The notes under the pieces: model-generated | Told to the model about the DNA's origin: nothing | The model's database searches: none | What the model saw: only the letters and a program-made list of their open reading frames with translations | Shown: piece by piece, positions 1-62,644 of the stretch | Position numbering within the stretch: the first letter of the stretch is position 1 | Layout: every line of letters starts with the position of its first letter | From: a virus | Virus record (IMG/VR): IMGVR_UViG_3300045988_119718 | Span: 160,001-224,000 of that record | DNA length: 64,000 nucleotides | Direction: 5' to 3' (one strand) | Program-made: the position numbers and the translations under genes

Positions 1-201
1 TCGCCTTTATACGCACCTGATTGAGATTCAGCATCAATATCACATTTAATAACCCTTACTGATTCTGGTGGAATAAAACTAAATGATGTTATACTATCAG
101 TGCTTTCAAACCTACTATCACTAGTTATTTGAGCTGTTGCGGGGCTAGCACTAAATACTACTACCCCCCCCCCGTATAGTTCCTTTTAAAGTTGTTGTCA
201 T
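1..201 (-). pseudogene. 5' portion of a gene running off the window start, with its frame interrupted 9 codons after the start by a G10 homopolymer (C10 on the + strand). Candidate phase-variable or homopolymer-miscalled structural gene
   Basis: GGAGGA-N6-ATG sits at 199-201 on the minus strand. The current frame reads MTTTLKGTIRGGGSSI-stop. Deleting one G opens the frame through to position 1 (at least 67 codons, ...VVVFSASPATAQITSDSRFESTDSITSFSFIPPESVRVIKCDIDAESQSGAYKG). Confidence 0.35.
164..173. repeat. C10/G10 homopolymeric tract
   Basis: Ten consecutive C on the + strand in a genome that is otherwise very AT-rich, lying inside the 5' end of a minus-strand ORF. Confidence 0.9.
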
Positions 202-1846: not shown

Positions 1847-2260
1847 TTAGAGGTCATCCTCGTCATCATCATCTCTCCAGTGATTATTGATCGCCTTGGA
1901 ATCTTTAGAATCTGTAGTATGACGAGATTCTTCATCAAAAGGAGGAGCAATATACTCCTTCCAGTTAGCCTCTTCCTGCTCAAAGAAGGAATCATCTTCT
2001 TTGGACTCCAGATAGCGAATCTTCTCGCTTTTCATGATAATCATGCGTTTATCCTCTACAATGCGGTGGATAAATGTCATAATCATATCTGACTCACGGA
2101 TATCGATAATATCGCCATGCAAGAGCATGGCGGAAACAATCTTCTTAAGGAATGTTTCCATATCGGAAACTAAAACCCTTGCACCGGTGTAATCTTTGTA
2201 ATCGATTCTCAAATCGATCAGCCTACACAAATCGGATACACTATTTGCGAATTTCATCAT
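1847..2260 (-). CDS. Small acidic protein (137 aa), remote paralog of 36339..36656
   Basis: ORF with acidic C-terminus (DDDDEDDL) and locally elevated GC. Its upstream leader is nearly identical to that of the 36339..36656 gene. A 6-codon uORF (MINEKQ-stop, 2260-2280) is coupled to the start by a TAATG overlap. Confidence 0.6.
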   Translation of the reverse strand: MMKFANSVSDLCRLIDLRIDYKDYTGARVLVSDMETFLKKIVSAMLLHGDIIDIRESDMIMTFIHRIVEDKRMIIMKSEKIRYLESKEDDSFFEQEEANWKEYIAPPFDEESRHTTDSKDSKAINNHWRDDDDEDDL

Positions 2261-2360
2261 TACTGTTTTTCATTAATCATGATTTGTCCTCCTTATAGAC
2301 AAAATGACTAGAGTTTATTTTCTCTAGTAACATAGTGAATTGGTAGATGTATTTCTACCA
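2261..2360 (-). promoter_or_regulatory. Conserved 5' leader (copy A): RBS block TGTCTATAAGGAGGACAAA plus two hairpins (CTAGAG...CTCTAG, GGTAGA...TCTACC)
   Basis: About 30 nt are identical to 36657-36690. The hairpin stems differ in sequence but keep their pairing when compared with copy B. Confidence 0.55.
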
Positions 2361-2418
2361 CGACTCACTATTATAATATATAACTATATATAACTAAGTA
2401 TTTTAGGAATTACAAAGT

Positions 2419-2446
2419 ATACTCTACCTTATATAAGGTAGAGTAT
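2419..2446. promoter_or_regulatory. 28-nt perfect palindrome ATACTCTACCTTATATAAGGTAGAGTAT (copy A)
   Basis: The core TACCTTATATAAGGTA is shared with the palindrome at 36778-36803. The flanks differ but remain palindromic. Confidence 0.55.
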
Positions 2447-2614
2447 ATTAAAAAGATATTAGTAAACGAATATTCAATTATATAATATTACAATGAGATA
2501 GTATAAATAGAAGTTAGAAATCTGAAGTTGGAGTTTTTATTTATACATATCTCGTACATATTTGTTTTCCTTTCTTGTATCAACAGTCTTTGTTTCTGCT
2601 GATACAGAGCACGC

Positions 2615-2685
2615 ATATATCTCACTATACCTAATATGGTATAGTGAGATATATTTTACATATTTTATTTTTTCTCTTTTTCTAA
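2615..2685 (+). terminator. Strong plus-strand intrinsic terminator with no plus-strand gene upstream (possible sRNA 3' end)
   Basis: 17-bp perfect stem ATATATCTCACTATACC / GGTATAGTGAGATATAT with loop TAATAT, followed by TTTACATATTTTATTTTTTCTCTTTTTC. There is no U-tract on the minus-strand side. Confidence 0.5.
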
Positions 2686-19417: not shown

Positions 19418-19547
19418 AATAAACACTTCTCCTTTCAAATATATAAATATAATAACTTTATATGGTTTCACTACTATAATATATATTTTATTTATACTTT
19501 ATGAAAAAATAAAAGTAGAGAATATTCTCTACTTTTATTTCTAATGA

Positions 19548-29253: not shown

Positions 29254-29491
29254 AATAAACTCTCCTTTGCATAAAAACACTTATGAAAAAAGCCTTTTAT
29301 TCTAAAGTGATTATAATTTTATATATCTATTTTCTATAAATAACGCATAGAAGATTTTCTATATGTCCGGAAAATTAACAAAGGTTTTTAAACTGGAATA
29401 GTTCAAAAGTGTAATAGACTTCTACAACTTTATAAACTATTCTTTACTGAAGAAGTGTAAAACTTTTATTTTTATTGAAAGGAGAAAACTT

Positions 29492-29596
29492 TATGAACTC
29501 TATTATTGAAAAAAGTATATATGCTATTTTACTATTTCTCTGGAGTATTATTATCTACGATATTATTTCTGGTAATATTATTGAAGAACTTTTATA
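29492..29596 (+). CDS. Possible 34-aa hydrophobic peptide
   Basis: GAAAGGAGAAAACTTT-ATG. MNSIIEKSIYAILLFLWSIIIYDIISGNIIEELL is one TM-like helix. Confidence 0.25.
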
Positions 29597-29699
29597 AACT
29601 TTCTTAACTTCTATAACTTTATTGGAGTTTTTAACTATTAGGTTGATTCTAGGAAAGGATTTGTGCGACTGAAAGGAGCAACAAAACTTTCCGCCATTA

Positions 29700-29765
29700 A
29701 AAATGGGTTCTAACCCCCGTGAGGGGGTGGTGATTGTAGATTCCTACCCCCTGGAGGTAGACTAG
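29700..29765 (+). other. GC-rich structured element (two adjacent hairpins) in an AT-rich background
   Basis: CCCCC-gtga-GGGGG and CTACC-ccctgga-GGTAG. No tRNA cloverleaf could be built. Confidence 0.3.
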
Positions 29766-29811
29766 CTTTTAAACTTTTACCAAGTTTTATACTTTATAAA
29801 CTTTTTTAATT

Positions 29812-29837
29812 ACCATCTTCGGTATATACCGAAGATG
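29812..29837. terminator. 26-nt perfect palindrome CCATCTTCGGTATATACCGAAGATGG, candidate terminator for the 29470-29840 plus-strand unit
   Basis: Perfect self-complement with TATA centre, followed by TTATATTCTTT. Confidence 0.4.
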
Positions 29838-30233
29838 GGTTATATTCTTTAAAAACTGTATTTTTAGAAAGAATTCTTAATATATCAATACACTTATATT
29901 GAATTAAGGTTTAGAACTCTTATATTAAAAAATGCAGTGTTATATTTCTATTATATTGGATAGGTTTAGAACAGTATTATTTTGAAAAATACTTATAAAC
30001 TTGTTTTTATTGGTATTTTATTTACACTTCTTAATTGAAGAGGTTTTATAACTCTTTTCAATTAAAAATAAAATTATAAACTCGTAGTTTATAAAGTTTA
30101 GAAAAAGTTTATAATTATAGTATTTTTTCAATAAATTCTTTTTTGTTATTATTTAATAATTCATGTACATTTTCGTAATGAAATTTTTTTGACTACTTTT
30201 ATAGTTTGTATTCTTTTTTCTTTCCCTCTTTTT

Positions 30234-30280
30234 GGAGGGAAAGGGGGATGGGGGTTCTAGGGGGTAGGGGGGGGAAGGGA
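30234..30280. repeat. G-rich tract (GGAGGGAAAGGGGGATGGGGGTTCTAGGGGGTAGGGGGGGGAAGGG), G-quadruplex candidate
   Basis: G runs of 5, 5, 5 and 8 within 45 nt, flanked by mirror-image pyrimidine runs (TTTCCCTCTTTTT / CCTTTTTCTCCCTTTC). Confidence 0.8.
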
Positions 30281-30689
30281 ACCTTTTTCTCCCTTTCTTT
30301 TTTCAACTTCATAAAAATGTATAGATTCTTTTCTATCTTTATAAGTTGTATTTCAATGTATTCTAATAGAAATATGGCTATTCAGTAGTAAAAAATAAAA
30401 CGATTTTTCTTATAACTTCAGTGTAAAAACAAGGGTATGAGATTGATTCTCATACCCATATCTTACCTCGTATATTGCTTTCATACAAAAAATGCTATAT
30501 CTCAAAATATAGTATCGTATTCCTATTAAAAATAATAGTCATAGGAGCATGGTTTAAAAATACAACATTACATACTTCCTATAGAAAAATGATTTTTTCA
30601 TGGATTTTTACCTAAATATCAATAATTTCTGTCTAAATGCGAATCATTCGCATTTGTTAGAAAAAGTTTATAATTATAAACTGAAAAAA

Positions 30690-30940
30690 TCGCTAATTTT
30701 TTAGTTAAAAATTAAAAATCAACTAACATACCCTTTTTTCGCTATTTTCGTATTCCTATTAGTTTTAATGGAAATATGACTTTCTCATACCTTGCTAAAA
30801 ATTTAGTTAAAATTGAAAAACCAATTAACATACACTTTTTTAGCCATATTCGTATTCCCATTGGTTCTAATGGAAATACGACTTTTCAATTTTTTCTAAA
30901 AATTTAGTTAAAATTGAAATACCAATTAACATGTGGTCAC
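30690..30940. repeat. Tandem direct repeats of ~105 bp (2.4 copies)
   Basis: AAAAATTTAGTTAAAATTGAAA(A/T)ACCAATTAACAT... occurs at ~30796 and ~30899, with a degenerate copy at ~30700. Each unit contains TTCGTATTCC(T/C)ATT(A/G)GTT..AATGGAAATA. Confidence 0.75.
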
Positions 30941-31022
30941 TACGAAATTATAAACAAAAGTTTATAATTAGTTTATAATTTATTTTTAAAGAAAATAAAA
31001 AACATGATAAAAGACAGCAGAA

Positions 31023-31049
31023 ACCCAGTACAGGATAAACCTGTACTGA
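31023..31049 (-). terminator. Hairpin downstream of the 1448-aa gene
   Basis: CAGTACAGG-ataaa-CCTGTACTG, followed on the minus strand by GGTTTCTGCTGTCTTTTATC. Confidence 0.4.
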
Positions 31050-31096
31050 GTATTCACGCTATCTTCAGTTGGTATACTATAATGTAGGTAAAAATA

Positions 31097-34000
31097 TTAA
31101 TCATGAAGATTATCTACATTAGTAAGGTTATTCCACTTTATACCAAGTTTTTCCTTACACTGTCTAGATAATTCCATAAGTACTTTGTTCAATGAACCAC
31201 TACTAATGATAGAAGCTGTCATACGAGCATTAACCGATGCTGAAGTTAATAAAGCATCTATTGGTTCATCAGGTCTAAAATCAGTATATGGTTCTTTACC
31301 TTTAGGCATAATATCTTTTACTACACCTTTGATTGCAGTGTTGTAAGTCAGCTTATCACCAACGCCCATCTTATCTTCACACTTGATGTAGAAGCAGAAC
31401 ATTACACCTTTTTCCAAGTTCTTGAATTTGCCTTCTGGTAATAACTTTTCTGTAGAAGGTACTGATTCATTAATTTCTATATCTGTTACTCCGTTATCTT
31501 TAAGATATTTCTTTTCTTTCTTTATAGAATTTTCATACTTAGAAACTATCTTCTTTAATGATGGAGATAATTCATCTAATTCACAAGTTCTAAATATTTT
31601 AATATCTTGAAGAGTACCAGTAATCTTAGAATGAACTTGAATTCTACCAAAGTCTGTAGCTAATTCTAATTCATCATCAGAAATATTCTTCATTAAAGTA
31701 TTAGCTTCATCATCAGTAAATGCATTCTGGAAGATTATTAATGGAGAACCTTCTTCTATAGGTTTACCTTTTTCAGCTAAGAAGAATACATTAGAACCAG
31801 CATCTAAAGAACATGTTTTTTCTACACAATAGAATGAAGTAAGAGCATCTGAAATACGTTCATCTATAATAGAAGAATCTTCATATGCTTCATCTGTACA
31901 CATTATAGCTATTTTAGCCATAGTACCAATGTTAAATGCAACGTTTTTATTATCAGCGTTATGCCCTATAGAGGGACTGAACGAAGTTGGGTCATATGCT
32001 AAGATATCATTATACTTTAAGGTTTGACCTTTCTTTACAAAAGGTTTAAGTTTAACTGTTACATAGAAACCACCATCAGAGTTCTTCTGTGTTTTCTCTC
32101 TTAAATCTACAGAATGCTTGGATTTATTACCGTCTTTATCTACTTCTTCAAAGATAATAAAGTCATCAGTAATATTTAAAACTTTTCCTTTTACTCCTTT
32201 AAATTTATAAGAAAAAATATTAGAAGTAAAGTAAGGTAATGCCTCATCCATGCCATAAGTAATAAAATTCGGAGATGAAGATTTAACTCTCATAATATGC
32301 TTAGTAGTCTGAATATAGCCCATTGCAGTACGAATTGGGTCATCATGTGTAGTAGCATAAGGAGCCATAGCTTCATAAACAGACATACCATTCAATGTAT
32401 TCAATTTAGATTTATCATTACTTACTTTAAGTATACCTCTGCCATCAGCTATGGAAGAATTAATAGTAGCCTGTCTAGTAATACCTACATTACCAGCAAA
32501 CCCAGTAGACATAGATAAGATACCTAACATGGAATCGTCATATACACGTTTATCTAATGTATAAGCTCTATCAGCATTCATACCAGATAAGCCTTTGAAT
32601 GAGTATGTATTAATAGCTTCAGCTTCTAATAATGGAGAAGATACCGAAAGATCAGATATACCAGGGTCTTTCATAACTGCATCTATAAGAGCAGACTGTT
32701 TAATGGTAAACTTAACTCCTCTACCAGTTCTCTTCGATTTATTAGCATATTGACCATATGCATTAGCAATAGCTTGATATAAATAACCAGCTAATATTTC
32801 ATTAGAACGTAATCTATTACCAGAGATATCTGCATGCTTATTATAAGAAGTAGAAGCTAATAAGCTACTAGCATAAGCTAATGCTTCTATATAATCGTAT
32901 GGAATATCGTACTTCTTGCAAATATCAATAGTCATAGGATCAAATTCGCAATCATAGAAGTTATCAAAACCATCAGCTTTAATTCTACCACCAAATTCAT
33001 CTAAGATATCTAACCACATATTTTTTGTGTTGATATCTTTAATAGAGAATCTAGATAAATCAGTTTTAGCTAATCCTGCCATTAATAATGAATCTTCTGG
33101 CTTCTCATCATTATAAACTAAATATCCATCACTAAATCTAATTACAGATTCTGTTTCAGTTACCTTAGGTCTAGTATCAGAGAATCTGTATTTAATCTTA
33201 GCTTTATCCATAGACTTCTGTAAACCTTCAGAAAAAGCCATAAGAATAATAACTGGAATTTTAGTATTCATGATAGATGCTTGAGAGTAAGAAAGTTTAT
33301 TAGATGGTTTAGCTAAAGCATAAGTTTCTGCAAATACTTTATCTTTAGAAGCTAAGAATTTACCAATAGTATAAGCTGCATTTTCTTTATTAGAATAGAT
33401 AGCTTTTTTAGTTTTACTATCATACCCAATTAAGATATCAGTTTTTTCATTAAATTTTTTATCTACAGGAAGTTTCTTTAATGCATCATAGTCAAAAGCT
33501 ATATAACTTCCATCAGCTGTAGTAATTTTAGAGTATAAAGCACCTAAGTCTTTAAATTCTATCGGCATATCATACTTGGAAAGAATAAAAGTATTATCAC
33601 CGATATAAACTTTAACTTTAGAATCTGTGTCTTTTAAGTTCTTTAAAGCTTTAGTAAGTTTAGATACACCTTTAGTAGACTTAGTACCACCAGAAGGATT
33701 AACTCTTGAAATAAATATTTTATGATAAGAGGTAACTATCTGAGTTGTATCCTCTTCTGTTTTAATTATAGGAAGTAAAAGAATCTGTCCAGCTATAGTT
33801 TTAGTATTTCCTCTTAATTTCATAAATCTATGATTTATAAATTTAGGAATATCTATAGCTATATTTGATCTAGTACCATTAATATCTTCTAATTGTACTC
33901 TTAAAGTATAAATATAATCTTCATTAGTAGATTCATCTGTCATTTCCATACTAGCAACACATAATGGCCTAGACTTATTTCTAAGAGATTTAAATATAGC

Positions 34001-35443
34001 AATAATATCTTCATCTATATCATAGGATTTATTAAAGTCTAAAGCTGTTACATCTTTCCATTCTTCATTAATAGAATCAATGGGAATAGTTTCAGGCTTT
34101 AATTCTCTTTTCTTAGTATAGTAATTCTTTAATACATCTCCTACTTTTTTACCATGGATTACAGTTTTATCAAAATCTTTATCTAACTGCTCCATTCTCT
34201 TTTTTCTAGCTTCAGTTATTTTAGTAATAGGAGGATTATCTAAATCTAATATTACATCCTTGATATAATCTTCATCATTATCTACTGTAATTTCTTTTAA
34301 TTCTTTTTCTTGAGATTCTTCTTCTTGTTCTTCCTCGGATTTTTCTTTAGGAGTCTCATCATCGTTGAATCCATCGTCATCTAAATCATCTGGATTAAAA
34401 GAAGCTTTAGCTGAAATAGAATCAGAATTATTTTTCTTTTTAGATTTAGTAGCACCAAATCTATTATCCATAACTATTGAATCAGAAGAATCTGGATTAA
34501 TCTCAGCATCATCTGCATTAGATAAGTCATTCTTTATTAATTTTTTAGTAAAGAATACAAATCTAATTAAATCTTTAATATCGAAATTAGAGAAGTCTAC
34601 TTTGAAGTATGCATTTTTAGAAGCGATAATAAAGTCTATACCACTCCAATAATTAGATATAATCTGTCTTTGTCTAACTAATCTATAAATCATAGAAAAT
34701 GGGTTTATAGAATTATTAAAATCAAATATATCGCAGCCTTTAGGAATCCATGATTCTACAGGAATGATACAGGTCTTTCTAGAATAATATTGATTAATTC
34801 TAGAATCATCTAAGTATCTAGTGATAATATGATGAAGTAAGTCTAATCCTCTATCTCTTTGATAAACTTTATTATTTTTCAAGAATATATTTATATAATG
34901 GGATAAATCTACGATAAGATTCTTTCTATTATATTGCTTTAGATTAACAAAAGTATTTCTAATAAATGGAACTTTAGCTTTAACTTTACTATAGATTTCA
35001 AATATTTCTTTTTGGTTTTTTATTCTTTCATTATAAAGAAGATTTCTAAATATACTTGGATAGTTTTGATTCATTCTAAAATCTTCATTTAATATTTCAT
35101 CTACTTTATCAGGAAAGAATACTCTACTATCATCTAAGTCATAATATAAATCATTATTATCACCATCAAATTTAGACTCTAACATAGTCTTCATAAACGG
35201 TTCATTTATAGTAGAAGCTTCATTAGTGAAAAATGTGAAATCCTTTTCTGTATAATATGAAATAAAAGTATTTCTATTAACAAGAAACTTATTATTATTT
35301 AAAAAGCTAATAGTATCATCAATATCCTTGGTTAATATAAACAAAGCACTATTATGATAAATATCATTTTGCGTATATGCTGGGTAAAATAGTTTTGTTT
35401 TCATTAACCTTAAAGGAATGAGTTTTTCTATCGTATATGGCAT
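31097..35443 (-). CDS. Multisubunit-RNA-polymerase beta-subunit homolog (C-terminal conserved regions) with a long unique N-terminal extension
   Basis: SPLLE...[31 protein letters not shown] aligns to RpoB NPLSE..[43 protein letters not shown]...[16 protein letters not shown] aligns to [52 protein letters not shown]...ARM aligns to [25 protein letters not shown]...SRMN. The three blocks occur in the same order as in RpoB. Confidence 0.6.
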   Translation of the reverse strand: [1448 protein letters not shown]

Positions 35444-36338: not shown

Positions 36339-36656
36339 TTATTTCTTAATTTCGGTGAAATATTTCTCACCGAGTTTCTGAGCATCTTTAACGATGCTCT
36401 TGCTGAGAGACATAATTGTCTTTACAGCATTAATGACTGGTTCATAGTAGCGTTCAACCAGATCACACGCCTCCTCAATGAAGTTCTGTTTGAACTTGAA
36501 AGAGACGAAGAAGAAGTCGCTCGTCTCAATCATGTTGCCTCTGAACCCAAGGGATTCAAATGAAGCCGACTTGCATTTCCTGAGAGCCAGCTTTGGGAAC
36601 CTTTTAGAAATGAAATTCTTGGTTTCCTGATCGATAGTAACGTTGATTGTGATCAT
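36339..36656 (-). CDS. Small protein (105 aa), remote paralog of 1847..2260
   Basis: The start is ATG (MITINVTID) 8 nt after GGAGGA. The listed longer form uses a TTG inside the RBS. Locally elevated GC. ETSDFFFVSF aligns to ESDMIMTFIH in the paralog. Confidence 0.55.
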   Translation of the reverse strand: MITINVTIDQETKNFISKRFPKLALRKCKSASFESLGFRGNMIETSDFFFVSFKFKQNFIEEACDLVERYYEPVINAVKTIMSLSKSIVKDAQKLGEKYFTEIKK

Positions 36657-36745
36657 AATGTTTGTCCTCCTTATAGACAAATGACTAGAACTTTTTGTTC
36701 TAGTAACATAGATAAATGAATACTTGATATGTATTCATTGTTATA
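36657..36745 (-). promoter_or_regulatory. Conserved 5' leader (copy B): RBS block TGTCTATAAGGAGGACAAAC plus hairpins CTAGAAC-aaaaa-GTTCTAG and AATGAATAC-ttgatat-GTATTCATT
   Basis: Shares the TTTGTCCTCCTTATAGACAAA(A)TGACTAGA block and the TAACATAG block with copy A. The hairpin stems differ in sequence but stay paired. Confidence 0.55.
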
Positions 36746-36777
36746 TTATACAACTATAAAATACGAGTATTACAAAT

Positions 36778-36803
36778 TAGACTACCTTATATAAGGTAGT
36801 CTA
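36778..36803. promoter_or_regulatory. 26-nt perfect palindrome TAGACTACCTTATATAAGGTAGTCTA (copy B) in a divergent intergenic region
   Basis: Same TACCTTATATAAGGTA core as 2419-2446. It sits between the leftward small gene and the rightward 2767-aa gene. Confidence 0.55.
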
Positions 36804-36858
36804 ATCCACCGCATTTGTGTTAGAATGAGCTTCCTCAACATATCATTAAACCTTACCT

Positions 36859-39800
36859 ATGAAAGGAGGAAATTCTATTTTGGATAAACTACCGAAAGTT
36901 AATAACTATATGAAAAACTTAGGAAAGTCTATTAAGTATGTAGCTATTAACGAAATACGAGAAACCTTGCCAATAGTATTTGAAACTAAAGAAACTAATG
37001 AAGAAGCTATTAGTTCAATACGTGCAAGTTTTCGTAATAAAAATAAATTAAAGACTATATCTACTATTGCTAAAGATAGCGAATTCTATAAAACTGGAAA
37101 TGATATATATAAGAACTTAAAGTCTTCTATAAAGACTGGGAATTTTTATTCTCAAAAAAGACAAGATAAAGCTGATAATGAATTTATGAAAAGCTTTATG
37201 GGAGAAGATTTTAACTTTGATGATGATTTCAAAGATGAAGAAGGCTTTGATGAGAGTGAAGATTCATTAAATGAAAATGCTGATAGCTTAAATGAATTAA
37301 ATAATGATCTTAATTCTGGATTTGAAGCTAGTGCTACTGCTATATCTAATACTACTATAGAATCTGCTAGATATGTAGGAGAGACAGTAAAAGCTAGTGC
37401 TGCTATGGCATATGCACAGAATAGTGAACAAACTTTTTTAATGAGAACTGGCTTTAAGAGTTTAGATGATGGATTAAAGAAATTAGTTCATTTTAATTCT
37501 GATATTCTTCAAAAGCATATTCAAAACTCTACTACATTCTTTGATAATACAAGCAAACTTTTAGCTGAGCAAAATGCTATGATGAAAGAAATGCTTGAAA
37601 TGCAGAGAAACGTATATAAAGCTAATCAAGCTAATGAAAATAAAACTGATTTTAATAAATACGCTAATATAGTTTCATCTGGTGGTGTAGTTAATTTATC
37701 TGAATACTTTAAAAATATTAAGTCCAACTTTAGTGAATGGTCAGAACCAATAATGATGATGCTTAACATGATAAAAGCAAATCCATTGGAAATGCTCATT
37801 CAAGGTGGATTAAGCGTTTTAGGCTCAGATAGTATGAAAAAAGCTGGAGCCGATTTAAATAAAACTTTATCTGGTACATTTGGTAAGTATTTATCATTTT
37901 TAGAAAAGCAAGCTAAAAAGAATGGTGGTATTTGGGATACATTAAATGATATATTTGGTGTAAGAAACAGTAAAAAATTTGATATTGATACAGGCAATTA
38001 TCAAAAAGGGCCTATGCAATTTAATGGTATTGCTAATAGGGCTATTACTGAAGTAATTCCTGGGTACTTAGCTAGAATCGAATCTGCATTAACCGGTGGA
38101 GAAGAAAGATTCTATGATTTTGCTGGTGGTAGATGGACTAATGCCAAAAAGATACGTAATAAATATGATAAAGAAATAAATAATGCTAGAGAAAATGCTG
38201 GGTTATCTGATTTATTTAGTGAGATAGGTAGTTCTTTAAATAAAATAAATTTTGATAATTATAATGGTACTAAAATAAGCTCTAAAGATAAAGATGAAAT
38301 ATTTAATAAAATAATGCAAACCATTGTTGATAATAATGGTGATATGGATGATAAATTCATCGTTAAACGAAAAGGTAAGAATGGTGAAGGTAATATAGAT
38401 TTTAAAGCTTTTTATAAAGCTTTTGGGTTTACACCTTCACAACTTACAGAATCCCAAAAGGCTATGATCAATGTAATGGCTACAGCATTAGCTAATACTT
38501 CTACATCTACTAGAGCTAGTTTAAATAATAGTGTAAGACAAGCTAAAGGTTCTGATTCACGGTTCAAGCAAGAAATAGAAAATGATCCAAATAGTGTATA
38601 TAGAAATATAGTTAATGGTCAATTATCTGGTTCTAGATTTGTACAATATGCTGCTGCATTTGGTGAAGGATCTATGGAAGCACCAGATAGATATATTCCT
38701 AGTGATAATTTAATAGAGGCTAATGGTAAAAATAAGAAAAACAAAGGAAGAAAATCTAATGATATTTCTAATACTTCTATAGTTGCTAGAAAGAATAAAC
38801 CAGTAGATTATGCTAAACAAGTATTTTATAAAATAAGTACTGTAGATGAATTTATAGAACTGCATCCTTCTAATGCTGAACCTATCATACGAGCAATGAT
38901 TGGTTACTTCAATGGGTTAAAGTCTATAGAAGAACTGAATGAAAAAGATGAACCTATCGCTAATTTTATTTCTATGGCTAGAACATTAGACTCTTATGAT
39001 TATCGATCTGATTGTAAACAGTATGCTGATTTTATTGATCTAAAAAAAGGAAGAGGAAAATTTTCTATTAAAGAAAGTCAATATAATGAATTACCTTTAG
39101 TATGTAAAAACTTCTATACGTTTATTATGAGCTTAGTATCTAAAGAAACTATTAGTACTTCTGAAGGATTGGCTAAGAGTGTTGATGATGCTCATAATAC
39201 TAAACAAGAATATAGCTACGATAAATATAAAGGTAATGGATTATTTGATAAATTAGATAAAGCTAAAGGTATAGATAAACTCGGTGTATTAATGAGCTAT
39301 AGTAAGAAATTAACTAGTATGCCATTTGATATACTTGGTAGTGTAATAGCTAAAACCGATAAAATTATCTATGATATGTTTTTTGGTAATGAGCAAATGA
39401 CTGATAAAAATACTGGTAAAAAAATTACTGGATTCTTTCAGTTAATGACTTCTAAAATTGGTGATACTGTAGAAAACTTATATAATGATATTAAAAAACG
39501 TATTTGGGGTAAAGAGCAGTGGAATACCTATAAAAATACTGTTTATGGTGCTTTTTCATCTATGGTAAATTATGGTAAGAGTTTTTTCGATGATGATGAA
39601 GAAGAAAATACTAATACTGAAGAAGCAAAAACCGATGAAAATGCAGAGACTGCTGCTGAAACATCTAAAAATAAAGTTAATAAGAATAATAGAAAAAACT
39701 CTAGAAGAGCTGCAAGACGAAGAAGAAAGCGTAGAAATCGTAGGAGAGTAAGAGGTGCGGCATTTGGTTTAGGAATGGTTCCTGAAACTGATATCTATAC

Positions 39801-59770: not shown

Positions 59771-59805
59771 AATAGACTACTCTTATATAGAGTAGTCTAT
59801 TTCTC
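59771..59805 (+). terminator. Intrinsic terminator
   Basis: ATAGACTACTCTTATATAGAGTAGTCTAT followed by TTCTCTTTATATT. Confidence 0.55.
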
Positions 59806-59864
59806 TTTATATTGGTATTTTAAAAACATACTTATAATTATTCATTATAAAAGGAGGTTCTAAA

Positions 59865-60788: not shown

Positions 60789-61463
60789 TTACTTATTTTT
60801 TTGCTCTTGCTGTAGAGCTTCATTCATGAAAGCAACTAAAAGTTTCTCCATGCAATGATCTCCTACGGACTTAATCTCTTCTGCTGTAAATGTTCTTGTA
60901 TACAGTTTAGAATTAGGAAAATCAATAGGCTCTTCTTCACCATTTTCGTAGAAATCTAAGTCATCGTCATCAGCATATGGATTCCATAAAATGAAATCAA
61001 TAGAACCGTCTTTCTTAATATATACAGTAACGGCAAGAGGTCCACAGTGCCGATAAGAACTTGTGCTAGATTCGATTCTAACATCATTAAAATCGATAGA
61101 GCAGATATATTTATCGGTCATTTCATACAAATATAAGAACTGATTGACATCAGTATCTGAAGGATCAATAGTAAACTCCCTATCTTCATTAGTAATGACT
61201 CTTTTACTTGATTGCATTGGCTGCTGAGGAGGCATAAACGGATTGCATGGAAACTGCTGCTGAACAGTGGAAGGATGCCACCAATAAGTTGGCTGATACA
61301 TTGGCTGCTGAGGTGGAACAGGTACACCTGGGTTATATGGAAACGGCCACGGCTGATACGGTGGGTATGGAACACAGTTTTGAGGCATACACGGCGGATA
61401 TGGCTGTGGCATAGTATTTGGTCTTTCCTCTTGACGGGTTGTGAACTTGTAATTAGTGTTCAT
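60789..61463 (-). CDS. Protein with P/Q/Y-rich low-complexity N-terminal 90 aa and a globular C-terminal domain
   Basis: PQPYPPCMPQNCVPYPPYQPWPFPYNPGVPVPPQQPMYQPTYWW. The N-terminal coding region is conspicuously GC-rich (61200-61430). Confidence 0.5.
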   Translation of the reverse strand: MNTNYKFTTRQEERPNTMPQPYPPCMPQNCVPYPPYQPWPFPYNPGVPVPPQQPMYQPTYWWHPSTVQQQFPCNPFMPPQQPMQSSKRVITNEDREFTIDPSDTDVNQFLYLYEMTDKYICSIDFNDVRIESSTSSYRHCGPLAVTVYIKKDGSIDFILWNPYADDDDLDFYENGEEEPIDFPNSKLYTRTFTAEEIKSVGDHCMEKLLVAFMNEALQQEQKNK

Positions 61464-61549
61464 GATATTTTCTCCTTTGGAAATAAAACATTATTATGGA
61501 TAGCTAAATTGCTATCCATAATAATAGTATACAATCGTATTTCTATTTA

Positions 61550-61963: not shown

Positions 61964-62644
61964 TTACTTAATTCTAAATACAGGGCTACTCATAATTGCA
62001 TCGATAGCTTTGTCATTATATACATGATATTTTTTAAGACGTTTAAATAATCTATTAGCTCTTTCCCCTGTTTTATTTAAAACGAGTTTATAGCAATTCA
62101 TATATCTACCATATTCATGTACCCCTACTGAAGCTAATTTACTAAATTCAATAGTATCAGAACGATACATTTTGGTAATTACAAAAGCAATATAAATATC
62201 ATTGCTATTTTTTGGAGAAATAGTACTCATAAAAACATCAGAATCATTATCTCTACAAGTTGTATTCACAATATCTAATTTATCTTTATATGAGAGCTGT
62301 ACTTCATCAAGCATTCCTTCTAATTCTTGAATATAAAGCTCGAATAATAAGGATGAGGATACATCTAATAATTTAATTTTATTAAAAGTTTTATGACCTA
62401 AACAAAAGAATTCATAAATAGCATCAGAGATATCGTTACCTGGGTCAGCGATTGCTAAAGAAATAAATGTAATTAATATAGGAAGTTTAAATTTATTAAC
62501 TGTTGTGCTTAATTCTGGAAATTCTTTTCCACCAGCAACCATTATTCTTGTAATAACAAATGGAGCATCAAAATCGTCTCTTTCAATTATAATTGAATAC
62601 TGATCAATATTGCTTCCCTTATCTTTAGGCATAATATTAATCAT
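61964..62644 (-). CDS. Hypothetical protein
   Basis: 226-aa ORF. Confidence 0.45.
   Translation of the reverse strand: MINIMPKDKGSNIDQYSIIIERDDFDAPFVITRIMVAGGKEFPELSTTVNKFKLPILITFISLAIADPGNDISDAIYEFFCLGHKTFNKIKLLDVSSSLLFELYIQELEGMLDEVQLSYKDKLDIVNTTCRDNDSDVFMSTISPKNSNDIYIAFVITKMYRSDTIEFSKLASVGVHEYGRYMNCYKLVLNKTGERANRLFKRLKKYHVYNDKAIDAIMSSPVFRIK

What the first reader, a model, noticed from the sequence alone, without database searches (positions are those of the whole stretch)
2261..2446. Paralogous structured leaders upstream of two GC-elevated small genes
The 137-aa gene (1847..2260) and the 105-aa gene (36339..36656) are weakly similar to each other (ESDMIMTFIH versus ETSDFFFVSF). Both are noticeably more GC-rich than their surroundings. 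Both are preceded, in the same order, by:
- a perfect palindrome with the core TACCTTATATAAGGTA, 28 nt and 26 nt long, whose differing flanks still pair
- a hairpin at the same relative position with an unrelated sequence (GGTAGA/TCTACC in one copy, AATGAATAC/GTATTCATT in the other)
- a block TAACATAG
- a hairpin CTAGAG/CTCTAG in one copy and CTAGAAC/GTTCTAG in the other
- a 30-nt near-identical block ending in GGAGGACAAA

Hairpins that change sequence but stay paired argue for a conserved secondary structure in the mRNA or DNA rather than only a sequence-specific operator. This could be an attenuator, an RNase-processing site, a translational operator or a promoter for the phage RNAP.
Basis: seen in the sequence. 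Interest (0 to 1): 0.7.

Follow-up and report, generated by a model that had tools for sequence, protein, structure and literature searches.

The report
Repeated early-gene cassette of a jumbo phage
The two look-alike "leaders" are copies of a reusable expression cassette (insulating hairpin, phage-polymerase early promoter, three-hairpin mRNA leader) that a giant gut phage and its relatives place in front of small, unusually GC-rich genes of unknown function; it is a tidy variant of a known design, not a new kind of element.

Summary
The nucleotide features are real, on the minus strand at both sites. The claimed similarity between the two proteins is not. The window is a 29% GC jumbo phage with a multisubunit RNA polymerase, about 30% identical to PBS1/AR9-type and Staphylococcus/Listeria jumbo phages.

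This block, AGTTRTATAWTAT-N6-G, matches the mapped AR9 virion-RNAP early promoter AAATATATATTAT-N6-G(+1). So the palindrome lies upstream of the predicted start (G 2366 and G 36736) and is not part of this leader.

The predicted 83-89 nt leader folds into three hairpins:
- HP1 starts at +1.
- HP2 is the middle hairpin.
- HP3 brackets the ribosome-binding site.

Relatives from IMG/VR and metagenomes give about 30 copies at five or more loci.
- The palindrome flanks, HP2 and HP3 show compensatory changes.
- Modules are reassorted between loci.
- Some copies have an ordinary terminator ending in TTTTGTAAY where the palindrome plus TTTGTAAT lies.
- Every cassette gene is GC3-rich (0.21-0.58, mostly 0.31-0.58, against about 0.16).

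Best reading: a terminator / early-promoter / structured-leader cassette, analogous to the T4-type PeSL. All function is inferred from sequence. It has no Rfam match. I rate it a new variant of a known kind, of moderate interest.

The parts
2418..2447 (-). Copy 1: 30-nt perfect palindrome (TATACTCTACCTTAT/ATAAGGTAGAGTATA). Predicted insulating or terminator hairpin upstream of the promoter.
   Evidence: z = -5.1; flank covariation; flagged as terminator-like; position-equivalent to canonical terminators in other copies.
2409..2416 (-). Copy 1: TTTGTAAT. Nearly invariant in all copies. Read as the tail of the U-tract after the hairpin.
2376..2396 (-). Copy 1 only: 10-nt tandem duplication (TAGTTATATA x2) that moves the palindrome 10 nt further from the promoter.
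2366..2385 (-). Copy 1: AR9-type virion-RNAP early promoter AGTTATATATTAT-AATAGT-G. Predicted +1 = G 2366.
2337..2366 (-). Copy 1 HP1: hairpin that begins at the predicted +1 (core GGTAGA/TCTACC at 2342-2359).
2307..2328 (-). Copy 1 HP2: ACTAGAG-loop-CTCTAGT, followed by CATTTTGTCT. Preceded by the conserved linker CTATGTTA (2328-2335).
2283..2304 (-). Copy 1 HP3: UUUUGUC/GACAAA stem with the Shine-Dalgarno AAGGAGG (2288-2294) in and next to the loop.
2260..2280 (-). Copy 1: 6-codon uORF MINEKQ*. It is a frameshifted remnant of the gene's N-terminus. Its stop overlaps the next ATG (TAATG).
1847..2260 (-). 137-aa cassette gene. GC3 0.46. Predicted helical bundle with a disordered acidic tail. 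ORFan family limited to this phage lineage.
1805..1836 (-). Canonical hairpin plus T-run terminator that closes the copy-1 unit.
   Evidence: read directly.
36776..36805 (-). Copy 2: 30-nt perfect palindrome (ATTAGACTACCTTAT/ATAAGGTAGTCTAAT). It lies between the divergent early (-) promoter and the late-type (+) promoter.
   Evidence: (z = -6.0).
36769..36776 (-). Copy 2: TTTGTAAT.
36736..36755 (-). Copy 2: early promoter AGTTGTATAATAT-AACAAT-G. Predicted +1 = G 36736.
36718..36736 (-). Copy 2 HP1: GAAUAC-loop-GUAUUC, starting at +1.
36684..36704 (-). Copy 2 HP2: ACTAGAAC-loop-GTTCTAGT, followed by CATTTGTCTA.
36661..36681 (-). Copy 2 HP3: UUUGUC/GACAAA around the SD (36666-36672).
36339..36656 (-). 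105-aa cassette gene. GC3 0.55. ORFan limited to this phage lineage.
36297..36330 (.). Bidirectional hairpin terminator shared by the 105-aa gene (-) and the 179-aa gene (+).
36837..36848 (+). AACATATCATTA, which matches the AR9 late-promoter consensus AACA-N6-TA. It lies on the other side of the copy-2 palindrome, 13 nt before the SD of the 2767-aa virion gene.

Best explanation
Each site is one copy of a composite early-gene expression cassette of a jumbo phage that transcribes itself with AR9/PBS1-like multisubunit RNA polymerases.

Order on the minus strand:
1. A strong hairpin (the palindrome) plus TTTGTAAT. It insulates the unit by stopping or attenuating transcription that arrives from outside.
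2. The AT-rich promoter AGTTRTATAWTAT-N6-G for the injected virion RNA polymerase. The start is predicted at G 2366 and G 36736.
3. An 83-89 nt 5'UTR with three hairpins. HP1 starts at the first transcribed base and most likely protects the 5' end from decay. HP2 has no settled role. HP3 has arms that bracket the Shine-Dalgarno sequence, so it sets how the ribosome-binding site is presented.
4. A small accessory gene with atypical codon use (GC3-rich).
5. A canonical terminator.

The cassette was spread by duplication and is kept similar by recombination between copies. It therefore also serves as a portable linker for gaining, losing and swapping small early genes, as PeSL elements do in T4-type phages.

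Shown from sequence: the elements, their order, their conservation and covariation, module reassortment, and gene presence/absence.
Inferred: promoter activity and start site (by analogy with AR9), termination at the palindrome, and the roles of HP1-HP3.
For: Phage type:
- The 1448-aa ORF at 31097-35443 matches PHROG RNA polymerase beta families at 1e-136. It is about 30% identical to the beta subunits of PBS1, Staphylococcus and Listeria jumbo phages.

Promoter:
- AR9 early promoters were mapped as AAATATATATTAT-(6N)-G+1 and late promoters as AACA-(6N)-TA/G (PMC5312081).
- Copy 1 matches 11 of 13 positions plus the G. Copy 2 matches 9 of 13 plus the G. A third site, at 19469(-), matches exactly.
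- The core pattern TTRTATAWTAT-N5-TG occurs 5 times in the window against 0.26 expected. All 5 are intergenic.
- The late motif lies 22-46 nt upstream of 9 of 42 genes, against 2.3 expected.
- No sigma-70-type promoter was found in either cassette.

5' hairpin:
- In 5 of 8 predicted early RNAs the +1 G is the first paired base. A sixth pairs from +1 in a longer hairpin. The first 32 nt fold better than background (p about 0.001).
- In relative L124, HP1 is a perfect 13-bp stem starting from +1.

Structure:
- The same three hairpins are the minimum-energy fold in nearly all of 17 copies.
- Palindrome: 94% of cells paired, 6 of 14 pairs changed on both sides, and 0 of 500 shuffles reach the observed score. 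One relative has lost the central TATA yet remains a perfect palindrome with new compensated flanks.
- HP2 and HP3: 99% of cells paired, with A-U/G-U/G-C series.

Terminator role:
- Cassette copies without the palindrome carry an AAAAGGTC..GACCTTTT hairpin and T-run ending in TTTTGTAA(T/C) at exactly that place.
- In relatives the palindrome follows a same-strand stop codon by 10-35 nt.
- Other early promoters in the window are also preceded by hairpins.

Mobility:
- HP2 and HP3 variants occur in all four combinations, and orthologous loci carry different modules.
- The type B and C cassettes and their genes are absent from the window.
- The 105-aa unit is deleted in L116, L093 and L117.
- All cassette genes but one have GC3 of 0.31-0.58.
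Against: - There are no transcript data. Promoter use and +1 rest on analogy with a phage whose polymerase is only about 30% identical.
- Copy 2 deviates from the AR9 consensus at 4 of 13 positions.
- The palindrome has a poor U-tract (CUUUGUAAUU). The scan flagged it as terminator-like only in copy 1.
- In both window copies no same-strand gene ends just upstream of the palindrome, so there is nothing obvious for it to terminate.
- The palindrome is kept in relatives that have lost the promoter and the gene. Its inner 14-18 nt are almost invariant. Both points hint at a sequence-specific role.
- Perfect palindromes can also be maintained by template-switch repair, without any selection.
- The covariation comes from few independent lineages, and part of it was counted on an alignment fitted to the model.
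- Only two copies lie in this 64-kb window.
Confidence: 0.6

Rival explanations
1. Leader attenuator. HP2 plus the following U-rich run (UCAUUUUGUCU) is an intrinsic terminator inside the 5'UTR. It prematurely stops most early transcripts unless a factor or an alternative fold allows read-through.
For: - The consensus scan calls HP2 terminator-like in both copies. It finds 3 and 1 such sites against 0.2 expected in the two regions.
- The stem covaries and the U-rich tail is conserved.
Against: - No conserved mutually exclusive (antiterminator) fold appears in 17 minimum-energy folds.
- The stem is only 7-8 bp with 3 G-C pairs, and the U-run is interrupted.
- The same U's form the 5' arm of HP3.
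- The leader is short (83-89 nt), and it matches no Rfam family.
Confidence: 0.1
2. Operator. The palindrome is the binding site of a dimeric DNA-binding regulator, or of a structure-specific protein, that controls the divergent promoters on either side. It is not a terminator.
For: - The inner core CTACCTTATATAAGGTAG is almost invariant across loci and genomes, while the neighbouring sequence varies.
- It is retained where the early promoter and the gene are deleted.
- Its centre lies 55-67 nt from a predicted start on each side.
- The identical 16-mer sits between TTGACT and TATAAT in unrelated phages of about 42 kb, like an operator.
Against: - The flanks covary to keep pairing, which a duplex-DNA binder does not need.
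- One relative has lost 4 central bp. That would change half-site spacing, yet it stays a perfect hairpin.
- Other copies of the cassette use an unrelated ordinary terminator at that place.
Confidence: 0.12
3. Shared translational operator. The conserved single-stranded linkers and HP3 around the SD are bound by one phage repressor (RegA-like) or by the cassette products themselves, giving coordinated shut-off of all cassette genes.
For: - The same leader precedes at least five unrelated or diverged genes.
- The linkers CUAUGUUACU and AGUCAUUU are more conserved than the hairpin loops.
- HP3 partly pairs the SD.
Against: - High conservation can equally come from recent duplication and gene conversion.
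- No candidate repressor was identified.
- The SD lies mostly in the loop, which should favour ribosome access rather than block it.
Confidence: 0.08
4. Host-transcribed 'moron'. The AT-rich block is a host sigma-A promoter (TATAAT with TTGTAA upstream), and the cassette is read by the bacterial polymerase.
For: TATAAT or TATAAC and TTGTAA are present. Strong SD sequences point to a Firmicutes-type host.
Against: - The scan finds no sigma-70-type hexamer pair with 16-18 nt spacing in either cassette.
- TTGTAA-to-TATAAT spacing is 19, 21-24 and 34 nt in different copies.
- The TATAAT register differs between copies. The AR9-type motif and its G align without gaps and at a fixed distance from HP1.
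Confidence: 0.06

Closest known systems
Early (virion-RNAP) promoters of Bacillus jumbo phage AR9/PBS1 and phiKZ-related phages (Lavysh et al. 2017, PMC5312081)
   Same: - An extended AT-rich element ...TATATATTAT followed by a conserved start G six nt downstream.
- Many copies per genome in front of small early genes.
- The phage encodes multisubunit RNAP subunits.
- A companion late motif AACA-N6-TA.
- Long 5'UTRs. That paper notes an unexplained motif in early 5'UTRs.
   Different: - The first three positions are AGT or ART rather than AAA, and copy 2 has further changes.
- The polymerase is only about 30% identical.
- No start-site data exist here.
- The AR9 description does not include a fixed upstream hairpin or a conserved three-hairpin leader.
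PeSL (promoter-early stem-loop) mobile regulatory cassettes of T4-type phages (Arbiol et al. 2010, PMC2839356; Comeau et al. 2014, PMC4122927)
   Same: - A composite stem-loop terminator, early promoter, SD and ATG, conserved over about 100 bp or more.
- Repeated in front of ORFans.
- Indels and replacements of the associated genes between close relatives.
- Evidence of exchange between copies.
- The stem-loop keeps a conserved sequence motif.
   Different: - The promoter is of the phage virion-RNAP type, not sigma-70-like.
- The stem-loop always lies upstream of the promoter.
- The unit is longer (about 150-190 nt) and includes a conserved structured 5'UTR.
- There are only 2 copies in this window and 3-5 seen per relative, against dozens in T4-type phages.
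- Mini-circles were not tested.
- The cassette genes are GC3-rich.
5'-terminal stem-loop mRNA stabilisers of Gram-positive bacteria and their phages (aprE leader, ermC, SP82 early RNA; from my own knowledge, not checked in the library)
   Same: A hairpin within 0-2 nt of the 5' end, plus a strong SD in the leader.
   Different: No half-life data here. The host and its RNases are unknown.
Phage 'morons' (a gene with its own promoter and terminator inserted between other genes; as summarised in PMC2839356)
   Same: A self-contained promoter-gene-terminator unit with atypical base composition, set among late structural genes.
   Different: Here the flanking regulatory sequence is itself conserved and repeated. 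Morons do not need conserved flanks.
Hairpin promoters of the phage N4 virion RNAP (from my own knowledge)
   Same: A DNA hairpin is associated with early genes read by an injected polymerase.
   Different: - N4 uses a single-subunit polymerase.
- The N4 hairpin is a 5-7 bp stem located at the start site.
- Here the palindrome lies 55-67 nt upstream and is replaceable by an ordinary terminator.
- Rejected as a model.

Membership tests
AR9-type virion-RNAP early promoter | AT-rich 13-nt element matching AAATATATATTAT | tested here: met
   Copy 1 matches 11 of 13 positions and copy 2 matches 9 of 13. The site at 19469(-) matches 13 of 13. In 17 cassette copies the block aligns without gaps.
AR9-type virion-RNAP early promoter | Conserved G (+1) six nt downstream of the element | tested here: met
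   The G is present in all copies. A hairpin starts at that G in 5-6 of 8 predicted RNAs.
AR9-type virion-RNAP early promoter | Genome encodes phiKZ/AR9-like multisubunit RNAP | tested here: met
   Beta-like subunit at 31097-35443: phrog_3148 at 1e-136, and tblastn hits to the PBS1, Staphylococcus and Listeria jumbo-phage beta subunits.
AR9-type virion-RNAP early promoter | Motif over-represented and intergenic | tested here: met
   5 exact matches against 0.26 expected, all intergenic. With 1 mismatch allowed there is no enrichment: 10 against 5.9.
AR9-type virion-RNAP early promoter | Primary 5' ends appear early, independent of protein synthesis and of host RNAP | not testable with these tools
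   Needs RNA from infected cells.
PeSL-type mobile regulatory cassette | Composite stem-loop, early promoter, SD and ATG, conserved as one unit and repeated | tested here: met
PeSL-type mobile regulatory cassette | Sigma-70-like -35/-10 early promoter | tested here: not met
   No sigma-70-type match in the cassettes. The promoter is AR9-type.
PeSL-type mobile regulatory cassette | Associated ORFans gained, lost or replaced between close relatives, with exchange between copies | tested here: met
PeSL-type mobile regulatory cassette | Mini-circles formed by recombination between flanking copies | not testable with these tools
   Needs inverse PCR on infected cells.
Intrinsic (rho-independent) terminator, for the palindrome | Stable stem-loop followed at once by a U-tract | tested here: inconclusive
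   The stem is stable: -17 to -19 kcal/mol, z = -5 to -6. The tail is CUUUGUAAUU in copy 1 and (A)AUUUGUAAU in copy 2. Only copy 1 passes the scan.
Intrinsic (rho-independent) terminator, for the palindrome | Lies just after the end of a same-strand gene | tested here: inconclusive
   Met in relatives at loci A and B, 10-35 nt after the stop. Not met at either window copy.
Transcription attenuator (leader terminator with alternative fold) | Conserved mutually exclusive antiterminator structure | tested here: not met
   None recurs among the 17 folds.
Any Rfam family | Score at or near the gathering threshold | tested here: not met
   No match at gathering threshold in the window, and none at E <= 1 in 1800-2750.

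The most novel reading that the evidence does not exclude
Gut jumbo phages with their own RNA polymerases may carry an integron- or PeSL-like gene-cassette system. In this reading:
- the conserved hairpin (core TACCTTATATAAGGTA) is a dedicated recombination or insulator site recognised by a phage protein;
- the three-hairpin leader is a shared post-transcriptional operator;
- the GC3-rich ORFans are horizontally circulating immediate-early anti-host genes that are plugged in and out through these cassettes.
Probability: 0.15. Interest if true: 0.7.

Novelty: new variant of a known kind. Interest (0 to 1): 0.45.

Why it matters
If the predictions hold, the window yields three useful things.
- A ready-made promoter map (early and late motifs) for an uncultured family of 230-260 kb gut phages.
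- Evidence that the terminator-promoter-cassette way of shuffling accessory genes, known from T4-type phages that use host polymerase, also evolved in phages that bring their own multisubunit polymerase.
- A compact leader (a hairpin at +1 and an SD-bracketing hairpin) that could be tested as a portable expression and stability element.

The consistent GC3 excess of the cassette genes also marks a small set of candidate immediate-early host-takeover genes.

Tried and rejected
- blastn of the 1-kb region against 50,697 phage records: no match.
- IMG/VR scan for the 3' block: no match.
- IMG/VR scan for CTAGTCATTT..AGGAGGA: only the known relative plus chance hits, and the other loci were not inspected.
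- IMG/VR scan for the 16-mer palindrome: mostly unrelated small phages.
- Pfam and PHROGs for both small proteins: nothing.
- Profile search of 1.84 billion representatives with the 137-aa family: 8 hits. Most are from this family or its paralogues; the weakest, a repeat-like hit to a 5291-aa protein at E = 9e-5, is probably spurious.
- AlphaFold model of the 137-aa protein: pLDDT 73, three to four helices and a disordered acidic tail. It has no significant fold match in BFVD.
- Paralogy of the two proteins: rejected.
- A coding uORF starting at the conserved CTATG: rejected. Frame and length differ between copies and two copies lack the ATG (sequences).
- Copy-1 uORF as a recombination chimera: replaced by a simpler reading. 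It is a 1-nt deletion of the intact N-terminus MINEKGPVMTKF... seen in most homologues.
- A long-range helix between CUAUGNUAC and the start-codon region: matching changes in only three copies, mismatches in most. Left as unexplained.
- RNase III site at HP2: unlikely for a 7-8 bp stem (my own knowledge).
- N4-type hairpin promoter: rejected on position and on replaceability.
- Sigma-70 promoter: not found.
- MAFFT alignment of whole cassettes misaligns HP1 and HP3. So sub-alignments and a covariance model were used, and the model-fitted alignments lean towards the model.

Full report
WHAT IS IN THE SEQUENCE

Both sites read 5'->3' on the minus strand. Aligned, the two upstream regions are 77% identical. 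The order at each site is:
- a perfect 30-nt palindrome (2418-2447; 36776-36805)
- TTTGTAAT
- an AT-rich block, AGTTATATATTATAATAGTG in copy 1 and AGTTGTATAATATAACAATG in copy 2
- hairpin HP1, with unrelated sequences in the two copies
- CTATGTTA
- hairpin HP2
- TCATTT(T)GTCTATAAGGAGGACAAA
- ATG

Copy 1 also has a 10-nt tandem duplication. Its SD-ATG opens a 6-codon uORF whose stop overlaps the start of the 137-aa gene.

Both genes have GC3 of 0.46 and 0.55, in a window where almost all genes have 0.12-0.24. The two proteins share no detectable similarity. So the nucleotide observation holds, and the protein claim does not.

WHAT THE GENOME IS

The window is 29% GC and carries giant ORFs, virion proteins and a 1448-aa RNA polymerase beta-like subunit (phrog_3148, 1e-136). 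Its best relatives, at about 30% identity, are the beta subunits of Listeria, Staphylococcus, Bacillus PBS1 and Fusobacterium jumbo phages. No phage record matches at the DNA level. Close relatives exist only as metagenome contigs of 227-263 kb.

THE PROMOTER

For AR9, the studied phage of this kind, early promoters were mapped as AAATATATATTAT-(6N)-G+1 and late promoters as AACA-(6N)-TA/G (PMC5312081).
- The AT-rich block of both cassettes fits the early consensus with the G in place. A third site, at 19469(-), fits it exactly.
- The core pattern occurs 5 times against 0.26 expected, always between genes. With one mismatch allowed there is no enrichment, so only the near-exact sites count.
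- The late motif lies 22-46 nt upstream of 9 of 42 genes against 2.3 expected. These include the 2767-aa gene divergent from copy 2 and the 466-aa gene downstream of copy 1.
- No sigma-70-type promoter is found in the cassettes.

I therefore place the start at G 2366 and G 36736. This makes the palindrome upstream DNA and leaves a leader of 83-89 nt. The start is inferred, not shown.

THE LEADER

From the predicted +1, both window RNAs fold into three hairpins (z = -3.3 and -4.0). The same fold is the minimum-energy structure in nearly all of 17 copies from relatives.
- HP1 starts at the first nucleotide. The same is true for 5 of 8 predicted early RNAs in the window, and a sixth pairs from +1 in a longer hairpin. 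In relative L124, HP1 is a perfect 13-bp stem from +1.
- HP2 is a 7-8 bp stem.
- HP3 has arms on either side of AAGGAGG. The arms occur as UUGUC/GACAA, AGUUC/GAACU and UUUUC/GAAAA.
- A covariance model of HP2 plus HP3 finds only the two copies in the window (84 and 72 bits). It also gives weak hits to the leaders of two other predicted early genes.
- Rfam has no match.

MORE COPIES, COVARIATION AND MOSAICISM

Scans of IMG/VR and metagenomes, plus gene-neighbourhood look-ups, gave 30 leader copies in 17 sequences. They sit at five or more kinds of locus:
- in front of the 137/147-aa gene
- a second paralogue after it
- right after the 35-aa gene that follows the 466-aa gene (types B and C, absent from the window)
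- next to the giant virion gene

Evidence for conserved pairing:
- The palindrome flanks occur as ATACTC/GAGTAT, ATTCTC/GAGAAT, TTAGAC/GTCTAA and ATCTCC/GGAGAT, with one half-changed intermediate. Six of 14 pairs changed on both sides, 94% of cells are paired, and 0 of 500 shuffles reach the observed score.
- One relative has lost the central TATA but is again a perfect palindrome with new flanks.
- HP2 shows A-U/G-C and A-U/G-U/G-C series, and HP3 shows G-C/U-A. Overall 99% of cells are paired. Part of this was counted on a model-fitted alignment.

Evidence for exchange between copies:
- Variants of the upstream hairpin, promoter, HP1, HP2 and HP3 are combined differently at orthologous loci. 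The same variants recur at different loci.
- HP2 and HP3 variants occur in all four combinations. This indicates recombination between cassettes.

Evidence that the genes are dispensable:
- The 105-aa unit is deleted in three contigs. One breakpoint lies inside the promoter.
- The uORF of copy 1 is a 1-nt deletion of the N-terminus that is intact in most homologues.

THE PALINDROME

Five cassette copies lack the palindrome. At exactly that place they have an ordinary AAAAGGTC..GACCTTTT hairpin with a T-run ending in TTTTGTAA(T/C). In relatives the palindrome follows a same-strand stop codon by 10-35 nt. Other early promoters in the window are also preceded by hairpins. This is why I read it as the terminator or insulator part of the cassette.

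Points against this reading:
- Its U-tract is poor, and only copy 1 passes the terminator scan.
- Neither window copy has a same-strand gene ending upstream.
- Its core is nearly invariant.
- It survives loss of the promoter and the gene.

A sequence-specific role (operator or recombination site) therefore remains possible.

THE GENES

Both proteins have homologues only in this phage lineage and have no Pfam or PHROG family. The 137-aa protein is predicted as a helical bundle with a disordered acidic tail and has no fold match. Of 19 full-length cassette genes examined in relatives, all but one have GC3 of 0.31-0.58. I cannot explain this. Candidate explanations are adaptation to host codon use for immediate-early expression, or horizontal circulation of the genes.

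COMPARISON AND VERDICT

In function the unit is closest to the PeSL cassettes of T4-type phages: stem-loop terminator, early promoter, SD, repeated before ORFans and mediating their shuffling (PMC2839356, PMC4122927). It is not a member of that family, because the promoter is not sigma-70-like and the phage is unrelated.

The promoter meets the sequence criteria of AR9-type early promoters. Its activity is untested.

I rate this a new variant of a known kind, with interest 0.45 and confidence 0.6 in the cassette model. The attenuator, operator, translational-operator and host-promoter readings are less likely rivals.

Noticed in passing
window 2476-2672 (+): A second early-type promoter, AATTATATAATATTACAATG (+1 G 2495), faces away from copy 1 across the palindrome. 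The next 178 nt or so have no convincing ORF. They fold into three hairpins, the last followed by a U-rich tail (MFE -53.5, z = -7.1). The promoter and hairpins are conserved in four relatives, with indels that break any reading frame. This is a candidate early small RNA with no Rfam match.
   Followed up: partly
window 29281-31096: A 1.8-kb stretch without ORFs of 80 aa or more, just downstream of the 3' end of the RNAP beta-like gene. It contains a 102-nt tandem repeat (2.3 copies, 85% matches, 30700-30932). No tRNA genes were found anywhere in the window.
   Followed up: no
window, upstream of genes starting at 1742(-), 35443(-), 36859(+), 45244(+), 51918(-), 57361(+), 59865(+): AACA-N6-T(A/G), mostly AACAT-N5-TA, lies 22-46 nt before the start codon of 8 genes, many of them virion genes. 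A ninth match lies 107 nt upstream of the gene at 61964..62644(-). That is 9 of 42 genes against 2.3 expected. It matches the AR9 late-promoter consensus.
   Followed up: partly
window 164-173: A run of 10 G on the minus strand (C on the plus strand) lies near the start of the ORF that follows the 35-aa gene. The ORF stops a few codons later. A G10 run is odd in a 29% GC genome. It could be an assembly error, a frameshift site or a variable tract.
   Followed up: no
window 60789-61534 (-): The 224-aa gene at 60789..61463 is the only other clearly GC-elevated gene (GC3 0.33). It also has an early-type promoter (+1 G 61517), a hairpin from +1 and an SD-bracketing hairpin. Its leader is a weak hit to the cassette model (18 bits).
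   Followed up: partly
window 36859-36882 (+): The ATG at 36859 of the 2767-aa gene has no SD upstream. AAAGGAGG at 36862-36869 precedes a TTG at 36880, which is the more likely start.
   Followed up: no
L036, L038, L043, L052, L060 and others (IMG/VR contigs of about 8-46 kb): The identical 16-mer TACCTTATATAAGGTA sits between TTGACT and TATAAT in a family of unrelated smaller phages, like an operator inside a sigma-A promoter. Its relation to the jumbo-phage palindrome is unknown, and it may be coincidence.
   Followed up: no
L004-L033 (IMG/VR): The exact 21-mer AGTTATATATTATAATA(A/G)TGA occurs in about 15 independent, otherwise unrelated phage contigs, many of 90-330 kb. It is typically just after a terminator and 20-100 nt before SD-ATG. 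This suggests the same promoter class is widespread in low-GC phages. Some of the hits may be chance.
   Followed up: partly
window 59790-59815 (+): Another palindrome with a related sequence, AGACTACTCTTATATAGAGTAGTCT, follows the 799-aa gene. It differs from the cassette core at symmetric positions (context).
   Followed up: no
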